DNA of 64,000 bases from Escherichia coli (lineage in GTDB: Bacteria; Pseudomonadota; Gammaproteobacteria; Enterobacterales; Enterobacteriaceae): NCBI RefSeq assembly GCF_022846255.1, contig NZ_AP025682.1. The stretch is one strand, 5' to 3'. The position numbers were made by a program. The number at the start of each line of letters is the position of its first letter. The first letter of the stretch is position 1. Shown one piece after another: positions 9,001 to 12,000 of this stretch.

Positions 9001-12000
9001 AAATACATTTGGAACTTATATTAAAAAGTGAAGGCCCTTATGAATTTTCGAAGATTAAAGAACTTTCAGGGCAATTACGACTTAAAGCTGAGTGGATCAA
9101 TGACACAACAGAAAAAATTGAGATAAAAACATCACATAGTGCTTGGCATTTTGATTATCATGTTCCTCAAATGGGGGATGGCGTAAATTCATTTACTCAT
9201 CCTCAATTCCATTTACAAAATGGAGGAAACAGGCTGACTGATAATTTAAATGACTATGGAGAGTTAATGATTCTTGATGCTCCAAGACTACCTTTACCTC
9301 CTATGGATGTGATATTAGCCATTGACTTTATTATTTCAAATTTCTTTGGTTCTATTTGGCAACAAGCATTATGTGATTCAGAATACATTGATGTAGTTAA
9401 AAGAGCACAAAAAGCATGGTGGAAACCTTATTATGAAGGTATAAGTCAACACTGGTCTGGCAATGGCTCAGGAATATCCAATATCCTAATTCCAAACCTT
9501 CTGTAGTGTATCAAAATCTGTTAACCATCTCCAATTACGAATAGCAATATTTATATAAAACTAATTTTTTATTTTAAACAACTTCAGCAAGGGCTAACTC
9601 TCAGCATCTCCTTCGGTGATACTTTGAGTTGCTCCTTGTTTTTTCGCCCTTTGGTTGAAAAAATTAAAAGCAAAACCAACCCTATACATTGACTTTTTCA
9701 GCATCTATCATATAAATAAAATAAGCATAATGGACATGCTTATTTTACTTTACTATATGAAAGGAGTTCATATGAATGATAGGAATCATACTTTTAATAA
9801 GTTCGAGCCATTCAGAAGTTGTAGCTATGAAAATTTTACTTCTGCTAAAACACTCTCCCAGCAGACACGTTCTCATTGTATTAGTATCAGATTAAATGAT
9901 GCCGAGTTATCTTACGTTGATGGCTTACGAGAAGATCTCAACCGTGCTGTTTGGATACGTATGTCAGCATTGAATCGTCTCCCTTCCAAAATTCCTGAAA
10001 TAAATCTAATTGTCTGGAAAGACCTTGCCAAAGCATCTCAGAATCTGAATAACCTCGTTCAGCATCTCAACACTAAATCACACGATAGTCCTTTTACTAT
10101 CACCGAAATTTATACGGTACAAAAAAGAATAAAAGCACTAAGAGATGCCCTTCTGTCAGCAAATCGATCTGTCAGTGATAAATAATGAAAGGGATGCAAA
10201 AAATCCGCAGAGGAAAGAGTTTTGCTGGTGTCGTCCTCTATGCGTTAAAGCCCGGTTCTCATCATAAAAAAGACCCTATCGTGATCGGTGGAAATATAAC
10301 GATAGTTGGCAATGCCGCTAAAGATCTGATCGCTGAATTTGATAGCACCAAACAGCTTCGCCCTGACGTGCAAAAGGCTGTTTGGCACAACTCGCTTCGC
10401 TTACCTAAAGGTGAATCACTAACGGCTAAACAGTGGTCTGAAATAGCAGATGATTACATGTCCCGCATGGGCTTCTCTGAAACGCATCTCAGATGCTACG
10501 TCCTACATGACGACGAAGATGGCCAGCACATCCATATCATCGCCAGCAGAGTGTCTCTTGATGCCGGAAAGCTCTACCTCGGCAGGAATGAGAACCTGGC
10601 AAGCACGAGAATAATTCAGCAACTTGAAAGAAATTACAATCTGACAAGAACCAAAGGGCCAGGAGCTAAAGCATCTACATCTTCTCTTTCCTCTAAACCG
10701 AAACATAAAAAATCACGTAATGAGGCTATGTTAGAGGAGAGAACTGGTGAACCATGCCCTAAATCCATCATCCAAAGGGCTATAGATTCGATAACATTAA
10801 ATCCTATAGCAATTGATGACTTCGTTGAAAAGCTGAATAGCATAGGGATTACGGCGAAAAGCAATATTTCTTCAACTGGCAAGATGAATGGATTTTCCTT
10901 TGAATGCAAAGGTGTTGTGTTCAAAGCTTCCCAGCTTGGCAAGAAGTATAGTTGGAAGAACCTGGAATCAATGATTTCAATGAATTACAACTCACACATT
11001 GGTGATGAAAAACCTGTCATCCCTGAACCTGCTGCCCATCGCAGCAACGAAGCTGTCATACCTATAGTGGAAGACTATTCTGATGAAAAGATTTACCCTG
11101 AGATAAGGGTACCCTTACCAAGACCTGACACAGCGCCCACAAAACCTACAAGCATGACAATGCGTTGGATCGCAACCATACCTTATCTTGTGAGTGTTAT
11201 TAGCGCACTTAAAACGATGCGTATCCCCTTTCTAAAGGCGTTCAATGGCCCAAGGAAGTTCTTTTCCGTGTCCATGATTCACCTGTCCTCTGTAAGCCTG
11301 AAACAGACCAAAACGAATAATTTCAAACCAAAAAGTTCCCACCAAAAGGCCCACAAGCCCCTTCTCCCCTGATTTCTCCACAGATAAACGATCGTTATAA
11401 TCGATCGATTTATTTATATTGATAGTCAATAACAATCAATAGGTAAATAATCGATCGGTACAAGCAATTTGCTATGTCCTTAGAAGTGTTCAAAATGTAC
11501 TTTCATGCATAAATCGGATAATAGGTTGATTTTACTAGCCTATTTTTCTATCCACGTATCGAACATGCAGGGACTGAAGTATGAGATATCTCATGATGAA
11601 GCGTGTAATGTTAGCAATCCTTCTTCCGTTTATTGTTGGATGTTTATTTGGTGCTAAAGCATTATCAGAGTATTGGGTTGTGTGGTTTTTTGTTTGTGCA
11701 ATGTTGATGATCACAGCCTGGGGCGTGTGGTTAAAAAATAAAAACAGAGGTTCCAGCTTCAGCTACCTGAATGATAATGAAGATGGTGTATTTATCTACA
11801 AATTTCATAATCAAGAGATGCGTTTAGATAAAGCCAAAAAAGAGCTTTATTTAAAAGATGGGTTAAACGAAAAAACCTACACTTTTTCCGATGTTGAAAG
11901 CTGGGAATATAAAATTAGCACAGGTGGTCAGATCCTCACTTCAGGTCTTAACCCTACAACTAACTTGATTAACAATAAGATTCTTGGTGAAAACATTAAT

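What the first reader, a model, noticed from the sequence alone, without database searches (positions are those of the whole stretch)
11386..11460. Repeated TAATCGATCG motifs in the intergenic region after the relaxase
The 10-mer taatcgatcg occurs twice (about 11397..11406 and 11449..11458), with a third CGATCG core at ~11389, within about 75 bp of AT-rich non-coding DNA upstream of the membrane-protein/lipoprotein pair. Spaced copies of a palindromic core suggest an operator or iteron-like site for an island-encoded regulator.
Basis: seen in the sequence. Interest (0 to 1): 0.3.

Follow-up and report, generated by a model that had tools for sequence, protein, structure and literature searches.

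The report
Dam/OxyR-type epigenetic switch beside relaxase
The repeated CGATCG motifs are real and belong to a deeply conserved 80-bp control region that has the same layout as known DNA-methylation (Dam) plus OxyR on/off switches, here placed on a mobilizable genomic island in front of small membrane-protein and lipoprotein genes.

Summary
TAATCGATCG occurs exactly twice (11398-11407 and 11448-11457, one base off the reported positions), and CGATCG occurs at 11389, 11402 and 11452. Three copies in 69 bp is about 1e-3 by chance after correcting for window size.

The conserved unit is not the 10-mer. It is three invariant GATC (Dam) sites set in three 15-bp sites that fit the OxyR half-site consensus ATAGnTnnnAnCTAT:
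- A: 11391-11405, two GATC
- B: 11422-11436, no GATC
- C: 11454-11468, one GATC

The sites are 31 and 32 bp apart. A conserved sigma-70-like promoter follows (-35 at 11469-11474, -10 at 11491-11496).

The array keeps fixed spacing in 45 distinct sequences from many Enterobacterales genera, always just after a MOBP-like relaxase gene. It is absent from Pseudomonas and betaproteobacterial relatives.

The layout matches the phage P22 gtr switch, which has GATC pairs 13 bp apart and half-sites 32/32 bp apart. Site A is nearly identical to the agn43 OxyR operator.

Most likely this is a host Dam/OxyR phase-variation switch for the downstream envelope genes, not an operator for an island-encoded regulator. 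The likely oriT lies upstream of the mob genes. This would be a new member of a known kind. It has not been tested experimentally.

The parts
11390..11406 (+). Half-site A (OxyR(A)-like): G-ATCGTTATAATCGAT-C. The 15-nt core is 11391-11405. It contains GATC1 (11390-11393) and GATC2 (11403-11406), 13 bp apart.
   Evidence: It matches ATAGnTnnnAnCTAT at 8 of 10 positions. Both GATC, T6 and A10 are invariant or nearly so in 45 sequences, while the 'n' positions vary. The site in relative L005 is 24/26 identical to the K-12 agn43 OxyR operator.
11421..11437 (+). Half-site B (OxyR(B)-like): G-ATAGTCAATAACAAT-C. The core is 11422-11436. It has no GATC and would be shared by both binding modes.
   Evidence: It scores 8/10 in the window and 9-10/10 in 35 of 45 relatives. 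The arms are conserved and the spacer is free. Arm changes are one-sided: 28 broken cells against 2 complementary ones, so there is no hairpin covariation.
11453..11469 (+). Half-site C (OxyR(C)-like): G-ATCGGTACAAGCAAT-T. The core is 11454-11468. It contains GATC3 (11453-11456) and abuts the predicted -35.
   Evidence: It scores 8/10 in the window and 7-8/10 in the family. ATCGATCGGTACAA is invariant in 41 of 45 sequences. The Pectobacterium loci carry GTTACAA, or GTTATAA in L019. B to C is 32 bp here and 31 bp in most relatives.
11469..11496 (+). Predicted sigma-70 promoter: -35 TTGCTA (11469-11474), 16-bp spacer, -10 CAAAAT (11491-11496). The inferred start is near 11503.
   Evidence: Hexamers of the form TTKnnn and nAnAAT sit at fixed positions after site C in all subfamilies, although the sequence around them has diverged. 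This is inferred; there are no transcript data. The generic promoter scan did not list it.
11581..12171 (+). First regulated gene: a DUF4755 protein with two N-terminal transmembrane helices and a beta-rich domain. PGAP places the start at 11593.
   Evidence: Pfam DUF4755, E = 1.6e-36. The AlphaFold model has pLDDT 74 and only weak PH-domain-like matches.
12183..12473 (+). Second regulated gene: a 96-aa lipoprotein with a signal peptide ending LTGC.
   Evidence: Translation. Homologous lipoproteins follow the array in other subfamilies.
10185..11372 (+). MOBP-like relaxase gene. Its stop codon lies 18 bp before GATC1. The array always follows this gene.
   Evidence: Pfam PF03432, E = 1.6e-26. 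NCBIfam TraI_MobP, E = 1.3e-19, below that model's cut-off. Position relative to the array.

Best explanation
The intergenic region is most likely a three-half-site Dam/OxyR epigenetic switch of the gtr type.

Proposed mechanism: an OxyR tetramer can occupy either half-sites A+B or half-sites B+C.
- Methylation of the two GATC in A blocks the first mode.
- Methylation of the single GATC in C blocks the second mode.
- Bound OxyR in turn protects the GATC it covers from Dam.

Each state would therefore be inherited until DNA replication, or conjugative entry, produces hemimethylated DNA and allows a change of state. The choice would set the activity of the promoter that abuts site C, giving ON and OFF subpopulations for the downstream small envelope proteins (DUF4755 membrane protein and lipoprotein).

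Shown here: the sites, their fit to the OxyR consensus, their spacing, their conservation, and their identity of layout with gtr and agn43.

Inferred: OxyR binding, methylation sensitivity, the promoter and start site, and bistability. Which occupancy is ON is unresolved. Site C would be centred near -43, as for OBS-D of opvAB where occupancy activates. In gtr the equivalent site (calculated here from the published GATC positions to be centred near -38) overlaps the promoter region and occupancy of B+C is the OFF state.
For: 1. Three sites in the window match ATAGnTnnnAnCTAT at 8/10 each, spaced 31 and 32 bp. This is the only such triplet, and these are the only such pairs, in 64 kb. Random sequences of the same composition gave 0 triplets in 200 trials, and 1 in 300 trials using island composition.

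2. The same scan of the 41.7-kb P22 genome finds only the experimentally characterised gtr switch, with 32/32 spacing.

3. In gtr, GATC1 to GATC4 lie at -110, -97, -46 and -33. That is pairs 13 bp apart and 51 bp between pairs, with half-sites A and C holding the GATC and B holding none (PMC2909390). Here GATC1 to GATC2 is 13 bp and GATC2 to GATC3 is 50 bp.

4. A composite pattern derived from this element hits once in the window (0 in 100 shuffles), once in each of 42 related loci, and in P22 only at gtr.

5. Across 45 distinct sequences, column conservation follows the OxyR consensus. Positions 1-4, 6, 10 and 12-15 are conserved and the 'n' positions are free in A and B.

6. Site A of L005 is 24/26 identical to the agn43 operator. 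The whole core of L018 aligns to gtr at 65/97 identity, scoring 26 against 4.5 +/- 2.0 for shuffles.

7. The GATC-bearing outer sites are the weaker ones (7-8/10) and the shared central site is the strongest (up to 10/10), as the model requires.

8. A promoter-like pair of hexamers sits at a fixed distance after site C in every subfamily.

9. The downstream genes are always small membrane proteins or lipoproteins. Known Dam/OxyR targets are also cell-envelope genes: agn43, gtr and opvAB.

10. The array is found only in Enterobacterales loci, not in the Pseudomonas, Gallionella, Polaromonas or Methylibium relatives. From general knowledge, the latter lack Dam.
Against: - There are no binding, methylation or expression data for this locus.
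- Site C has one GATC, not two, and its right arm is poor (CAAT, TGAT or CGTT in place of CTAT).
- The 'n' positions of site C (GGTACAA) are invariant, which OxyR recognition alone does not explain.
- The promoter was not listed by the generic scan and rests on conservation only.
- The constant position next to a relaxase gene could point to a transfer-related role.
- Absence from Dam-less hosts is confounded with phylogeny, because those relatives form a separate clade with much longer relaxases.
Confidence: 0.7

Rival explanations
1. The array is an operator for an element-encoded DNA-binding protein. One candidate is the ribbon-helix-helix-like MobC protein encoded upstream of the relaxase; another is a regulator elsewhere on the island. 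Under this reading the GATC are incidental parts of the recognition sequence.
For: The array always travels with the mobC-relaxase module. The sites are 6-7-6 palindromes, a form typical of dimeric repressors. A different 7-7-7 palindrome follows the mob promoter at 9722-9742, so element-encoded operators probably do exist here.
Against: At the right arm of site A the bases flanking GATC vary (AGATCG, CGATCG, CGATCA, CGATCT) while GATC itself never does. This pattern fits a Dam target better than a protein half-site. The conserved columns reproduce the OxyR consensus, including T6 and A10. The spacing equals that of gtr. The mob-promoter palindrome (TAAGCAT) is unrelated in sequence. The AlpA-like gene (18288-18575) lies beyond the ginA end of the gin operon, so I take it to be outside the element.
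Confidence: 0.1
2. The array is a Dam-dependent element that does not involve OxyR. The GATC cluster might be read by SeqA or by another LysR-type or global regulator, making the downstream promoter respond to hemimethylation after replication or conjugative entry. This would give no stable two-state inheritance.
For: The three GATC are invariant in 44 of 45 sequences; L001 has lost GATC1. SeqA is an ancillary factor at opvAB. T-N11-A palindromes are general LysR-type boxes (general knowledge).
Against: The GATC-free site B is as conserved as the GATC sites and is a 9-10/10 OxyR match in most loci. A SeqA-only model does not need it. ATAG-N7-CTAT is the OxyR-specific form of the box.
Confidence: 0.1
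3. The array is a transfer or replication site: the origin of transfer nicked by the adjacent relaxase, a single-strand origin for complementary-strand synthesis, or a terminator hairpin for the mob operon.
For: It is adjacent to the relaxase gene and contains inverted repeats followed by an invariant 14-mer. The two CGATCG copies at 11389-11407 score as a weak terminator-like hairpin.
Against: The arms of the inverted repeats show no compensatory changes (240 consensus, 28 broken, 2 complementary cells), so hairpin formation is not what is selected. A much better oriT candidate lies upstream of mobC (9586-9655). It has a hairpin with abundant compensatory change next to an invariant 13-mer, and it is conserved as far as Pseudomonas and betaproteobacteria. 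No T-run follows the hairpin in most relatives. No Rfam family reaches its gathering threshold.
Confidence: 0.05

Closest known systems
gtr phase-variation switch of phage P22 and Salmonella (Dam + OxyR; Broadbent et al. 2010, PMC2909390)
   Same: - Three OxyR half-sites A-B-C about 32 bp apart.
- GATC pair 13 bp apart inside A, none in B, GATC in C.
- Promoter directly after C.
- Carried by a mobile element, upstream of envelope-related genes.
- The same composite pattern and the same consensus-only scan find both elements and nothing else in their genomes.
- About 67% identity over 97 bp for some family members.
   Different: - Site C has one GATC instead of two, with GATT, AATT or GTTT at the position of GATC4.
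- Spacing is 31/31-32 rather than 32/32.
- The predicted -10 is 4-5 bp further from site C. Site C therefore abuts rather than overlaps the -35, and the ON/OFF assignment may be inverted.
- The regulated genes are not glycosyltransferases.
- The element is a mobilizable island, not a prophage.
opvAB switch of Salmonella enterica (Cota et al. 2016, PMC4856963)
   Same: OxyR half-sites 32 bp apart on one face of the helix. The promoter-proximal site is centred at -43 and the next at -75, as predicted here for C and B. The GATC-bearing sites match the consensus at only 7-8/10. The targets are small inner-membrane proteins on horizontally acquired DNA.
   Different: opvAB has four half-sites and four GATC with 46/19/46-nt gaps. 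Two of its GATC lie outside the half-sites. OxyR is proposed to bind non-adjacent sites there.
agn43 (flu) operator of E. coli K-12
   Same: Site A is almost the same sequence as the agn43 GATC-II/GATC-III region: GATCGTTTATAyCGATCGATAA, 24/26 identity for L005. Both have three GATC in all, with 13-bp spacing for one pair.
   Different: agn43 has a single OxyR binding site that acts only as a repressor. It has no separate GATC-free half-site 31 bp away and no alternative binding mode.
Phage Mu mom regulatory region (Dam + OxyR)
   Same: OxyR and Dam together control a gene on a mobile element (mentioned).
   Different: Not compared at sequence level here. Phase variation of mom is not established.

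Membership tests
gtr-type Dam/OxyR phase-variation switch | Three OxyR half-sites, each matching ATAGnTnnnAnCTAT, about 32 bp apart, giving two alternative tetramer sites (AB or BC) | tested here: met
   Sites at 11391, 11422 and 11454 score 8/10 each with 31/32 spacing. This is the only triplet in the window. The P22 positive control returns only gtr. In the family, scores are 7-8 / 8-10 / 7-8, with 31/31 spacing in 38 of 45.
gtr-type Dam/OxyR phase-variation switch | GATC pair 13 bp apart inside the distal half-site A | tested here: met
   GATC at 11390 and 11403. Both are invariant in 44 of 45 sequences; L001 has lost GATC1.
gtr-type Dam/OxyR phase-variation switch | GATC pair inside the proximal half-site C (four GATC in all) | tested here: not met
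   Only GATC3 (11453) is present. The position of the fourth reads CAAT/GATT/CGTT. One methylatable site remains in C, so the logic can still hold, but the architecture is a variant.
gtr-type Dam/OxyR phase-variation switch | Promoter immediately downstream of, or overlapped by, half-site C | tested here: inconclusive
   -35-like and -10-like hexamers are conserved at fixed positions (11469-11474 and 11491-11496). There are no transcript data, and the generic scan did not list the pair.
gtr-type Dam/OxyR phase-variation switch | OxyR binding abolished by GATC methylation, and OxyR binding protecting GATC from Dam | not testable with these tools
   Needs gel-shift, footprint and methylation-protection assays, or long-read methylome data.
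gtr-type Dam/OxyR phase-variation switch | Heritable, reversible ON and OFF subpopulations dependent on dam and oxyR | not testable with these tools
   Needs reporter fusions and single-cell analysis.
agn43-type operator (single OxyR repressor site with three GATC) | One OxyR site that holds all three GATC and acts only as a repressor | tested here: not met
   Here the GATC are split between two sites 63 bp apart, a GATC-free site lies between them, and the array is upstream of the predicted promoter.
Origin of transfer (oriT) of the adjacent MOBP-like relaxase | Inverted repeat whose pairing is maintained, next to a conserved nick region that co-varies with the relaxase family | tested here: not met
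   No compensatory changes in the arms. The array is absent from distant relaxase relatives. The element at 9586-9655 meets these criteria instead.
Iterons | Tandem direct repeats of about 17-22 bp next to a replication initiator gene | tested here: not met
   The sites are palindromic half-sites spaced 31-32 bp apart. No rep gene was identified among the proteins scanned.

The most novel reading that the evidence does not exclude
A Dam/OxyR bistable switch may be a fixed component of the mobilization backbone (oriT-mobC-relaxase-switch) of GInt-type islands across Enterobacterales. Conjugative entry delivers a single methylated strand, so it would yield hemimethylated GATC and reset the switch in each new host. 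Each recipient lineage would then split into cells that do and do not express the island's envelope proteins, which might act in exclusion or phage resistance. This would be the first epigenetic phase-variation module tied to a conjugative mobilization cassette, and it would show GInts, so far described as non-mobilizable, to be mobilizable.
Probability: 0.25. Interest if true: 0.7.

Novelty: new member of a known kind. Interest (0 to 1): 0.5.

Why it matters
Only a few Dam/OxyR phase-variation loci have been worked out: agn43, gtr, opvAB and possibly mom. This element would add a widespread one. It is present in about 3% of complete E. coli genomes (170 of 5426) and in the Klebsiella, Citrobacter, Salmonella, Pantoea, Erwinia, Pectobacterium, Yersinia and Rahnella representatives in the species-representative genome scan.

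It sits on a mobile island next to the relaxase and controls envelope proteins of unknown function. That gives a concrete handle on what those DUF4755 and lipoprotein genes do, because phase-variable envelope genes are usually under phage or immune selection.

It also provides a natural series of variants for studying how switch bias is tuned: one, two or more GATC near site C, and a lost GATC1 in strain TUM11353. Finally, it flags heterogeneous expression as a property of this island family.

Tried and rejected
- **Rfam scan of 9300-13400.** Only sub-threshold chance hits.
- **Near search of plasmids and distant search of phages with the region.** No match.
- **Full-text search for the invariant 14-mer, for DUF4755, and for OxyR + GATC + phase variation + relaxase.** Nothing found.
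- **PDB sequence search with the relaxase.** Nothing useful.
- **oriT reading.** Rejected because a better candidate lies upstream and the arms do not co-vary.
- **Intrinsic terminator.** The stem is only 6 bp, and most relatives have no T-run.
- **XerCD/cer-like site.** Considered because GGTACAA resembles the cer XerC arm as I recall it. No conserved XerD arm follows, and conservation stops after TTT.
- **End of the GInt element or recombination junction at site C.** The island's distal end is instead near 2890.
- **Frpo-like single-strand promoter or single-strand origin.** The hairpins are too short to hold -35/-10, and there is no covariation.
- **FNR, CRP, IHF and DnaA consensus comparisons done by eye.** None fit.
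- **Leftward antisense promoter into the relaxase gene.** The sequence left of site A is not conserved.
- **Structure prediction of the DUF4755 protein.** The model shows two transmembrane helices plus a PH-like beta-sandwich, with no significant PDB match (best E = 0.075), so no function could be assigned.
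Full report
**Observation**

The sequence is as described, with coordinates off by one base.
- TAATCGATCG occurs exactly twice in the window, at 11398-11407 and 11448-11457.
- CGATCG occurs at 11389, 11402 and 11452.
- Across the whole window CGATCG is not enriched: 17 found, 16.7 expected.
- Three copies in 69 bp has a Poisson probability near 1e-6, or about 1e-3 after correction for the number of such windows.
- The 208-bp region 11373-11580 is non-coding and 32.7% G+C.

**Context**

The window is E. coli chromosome carrying a low-G+C island next to a tRNA-Leu gene. Within the island the gene order is as follows.
- Cargo: an Eco57I-like N6-methylase, a double-HATPase protein and two unknowns.
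- A small MobC-like gene, then a relaxase (Pfam PF03432; weak NCBIfam match to TraI/MobA(P), below cut-off).
- The region of interest.
- A DUF4755 membrane-protein gene and a 96-aa lipoprotein gene.
- On the other strand, a four-gene operon of two tyrosine recombinases, a 543-aa protein and a 132-aa protein.

That operon has the organisation of the ginABCD operon that defines GInt islands. Membership was not tested by sequence comparison with GInt proteins.

**Conservation**

A distant search found the region in 170 of 5426 complete E. coli genomes. In every locus examined in detail it lies just after the relaxase gene, at about 70% identity even where the downstream gene differs.

An alignment of five diverged islands showed blocks of invariant bases inside a poorly conserved surrounding.

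A scan of species-representative genomes with the relaxase family returned 60 loci. All Enterobacterales loci long enough to include the region carry the array on the same strand. Counting these together with the E. coli loci fetched earlier, that is 46 loci and 45 distinct sequences. Genera include Klebsiella, Citrobacter, Salmonella, Pantoea, Erwinia, Pectobacterium, Brenneria, Yersinia, Rahnella, Buttiauxella and Enterobacter.

Relatives from Pseudomonas, Gallionellales, Polaromonas and Methylibium have relaxases of 515-871 aa and lack the array.

**What is conserved**

Neither the 10-mer nor CGATCG is conserved. The conserved features are these.
1. Three GATC at fixed positions, at -62/-63, -49/-50 and 0 relative to the third.
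2. A palindrome, TGATAG-N7-CTATCA, between them. Its arms are conserved and its spacer is free.
3. The invariant string ATCGATCGGTACAA.

Column by column, sites A and B reproduce the OxyR half-site consensus ATAGnTnnnAnCTAT. Positions 1-4, 6, 10 and 12-15 are conserved and the 'n' positions vary.

The arms of the palindrome change on one side only: 28 broken cells against 2 complementary ones. Selection therefore acts on the sequence of each arm in duplex DNA, not on hairpin formation.

**Comparison with known switches**

In the published description of the P22 gtr switch, GATC1 to GATC4 lie at -110, -97, -46 and -33. There are three OxyR half-sites: A and C hold the GATC pairs and B holds none. 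OxyR bound at AB gives ON and at BC gives OFF. Methylation blocks binding, and binding blocks methylation (PMC2909390).

I read the P22 sequence directly. It is TTGATCG-N7-CGATCAA, then ATAG-N7-CTAT, then TGATCG-N7-CGATCA, with half-sites 32 and 32 bp apart. The present element has 13 bp between GATC1 and GATC2, 50 bp between GATC2 and GATC3, and half-sites 31 and 32 bp apart (31/31 in 38 of 45 relatives).

Several tests support the match.
- A composite pattern written from this element matches once in the window (none in 100 shuffles), once in each of 42 related loci, and in P22 only at gtr.
- A scan using only the ten consensus positions, without reference to GATC, finds a single triplet in the 64-kb window, which is this one. 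It also finds a single triplet in P22, which is gtr. Random sequences gave essentially none.
- Some family members align to the gtr region at 65/97 identity, scoring 26 against 4.5 +/- 2.0 for shuffles.
- Site A of L005 is 24/26 identical to the agn43 operator of E. coli K-12.

**Promoter and targets**

After site C, every subfamily keeps a TTKnnn hexamer and, 16-17 bp further on, an nAnAAT hexamer, while the sequence around them diverges. In the window these are TTGCTA (11469-11474) and CAAAAT (11491-11496), which implies a start near 11503.

The half-sites would then be centred near -105, -74 and -43. The last two coincide with OBS-C and OBS-D of opvAB at -75 and -43. This assignment is inferred; the generic promoter scan did not list the pair.

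The genes that follow are always small envelope proteins:
- DUF4755 proteins
- 96-112-aa lipoproteins
- a BamE-like lipoprotein
- a 90-aa zinc-ribbon membrane protein
- a 221-238-aa membrane protein

**Mechanism proposed**

OxyR would bind AB or BC. Dam methylation of the GATC in the unoccupied outer site would lock the choice, and replication or conjugative entry would reopen it. The result would be ON and OFF lineages for the envelope genes.

Which occupancy is ON cannot be decided from sequence. By my calculation site C of gtr is centred near -38; it overlaps the promoter region and represses. OBS-D of opvAB abuts the -35 at -43 and activates. The present geometry resembles the latter.

**Why not oriT**

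A stronger candidate lies upstream of mobC at 9586-9655.
- It has an invariant AGCAAGGGCTAAC next to a hairpin whose arms differ completely between loci yet stay complementary.
- It is conserved as far as Pseudomonas, Gallionellales and Methylibium.
- Variable cargo begins exactly at its left edge.

Read on the minus strand, the motif after the hairpin is GTTAGCCCTTGCT. This resembles the MOBP nick consensus as I recall it. That resemblance is a lead, not a test.

**Unexplained**

- The 'n' positions of site C (GGTACAA) are invariant.
- A block TGATTTwACTAGCCTATTT (11527-11545) in the presumed 5' untranslated region is invariant within the window's subfamily.
- Some subfamilies carry extra GATC just upstream of site C, and the closest relative (TUM11353) has lost GATC1.

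**Novelty and verdict**

No paper in the searchable library links OxyR/GATC phase variation to relaxases or to DUF4755.

The element is best filed as a new, widespread member of the gtr-type Dam/OxyR switches, a variant with three GATC, pending experimental test. Confidence is 0.7.

Noticed in passing
window 9586-9655: Candidate origin of transfer upstream of mobC. It comprises an invariant AGCAAGGGCTAAC (9586-9598), a hairpin at 9596-9630 with many compensatory changes across 50 sequences, then a T-run and CGCCCTT. It is conserved as far as Pseudomonas, Gallionellales and Methylibium relatives. The variable cargo of different islands begins exactly at its left edge, which suggests exchange at the nick site.
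   Followed up: partly
window 9683-9742: Promoter-like TTGACT/TATAAA upstream of mobC, followed by a 7-7-7 palindrome TAAGCAT-N7-ATGCTTA (9722-9742). The palindrome may be an autoregulatory operator of the mob operon. It is unrelated in sequence to the GATC array.
   Followed up: no
window about 2890-18200 (gin-like operon 13358-17905, minus strand): The relaxase, the switch and the cargo appear to sit inside an island with a ginABCD-like operon: 401-aa and 441-aa tyrosine recombinases, a 543-aa protein and a 132-aa protein. Homology to two related islands breaks near 2890. The literature describes GInts as putatively non-mobilizable, yet this family carries oriT, mobC and a relaxase.
   Followed up: partly
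window 10777-12852 versus L002 (E. coli FDAARGOS_144): Mosaic structure. The flanks are 92% (9586-10776) and 98% (12853-20125) identical to L002. The stretch between them (relaxase C-terminus, switch, DUF4755 and lipoprotein genes) is replaced by a version only about 70% similar and with a different downstream gene. This indicates module swapping with a breakpoint inside the relaxase gene.
   Followed up: partly
L001 (E. coli TUM11353) 11891-11894, equivalent to window 11390-11393: The otherwise 99.4% identical island has GATC1 changed to TATC. This removes the Dam site but leaves the OxyR half-site consensus positions intact. It is a natural analogue of the engineered GATC mutants used to lock such switches.
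   Followed up: no
window 11527-11545: TGATTTTACTAGCCTATTT lies between the predicted promoter and the start codon. It is invariant among the five islands aligned, including those with a different downstream gene. Its function is unknown; it could be a leader RNA element or a further binding site.
   Followed up: no
window 3686-9506: The cargo consists of an Eco57I-like N6-adenine methylase (561 aa), a 769-aa protein with two HATPase domains, and two proteins without family matches (373 and 247 aa). Together they look like a candidate defence system.
   Followed up: no
window 1949-2818 (minus strand): A truncated P4-type integrase with the arm-binding and central domains only and no catalytic domain. 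It lies just left of the island's distal end. An intact paralogue lies at 19593-20840 next to tRNA-Leu. This suggests tandem or decayed islands at this site.
   Followed up: no
window 11581-12171: The DUF4755 protein is modelled (pLDDT 74) as two N-terminal transmembrane helices, a PH-like beta-sandwich and a long C-terminal helix. The best PDB matches are PH domains at non-significant E-values (0.075 and above).
   Followed up: partly
window 12524-12559: A 15-bp-stem inverted repeat (GATAACAGCCAGTGG...CCACTGGTTGTTATC) lies between the lipoprotein gene and the convergent 140-aa gene. It is probably a bidirectional terminator separating the switch-controlled genes from the gin-side genes.
   Followed up: no
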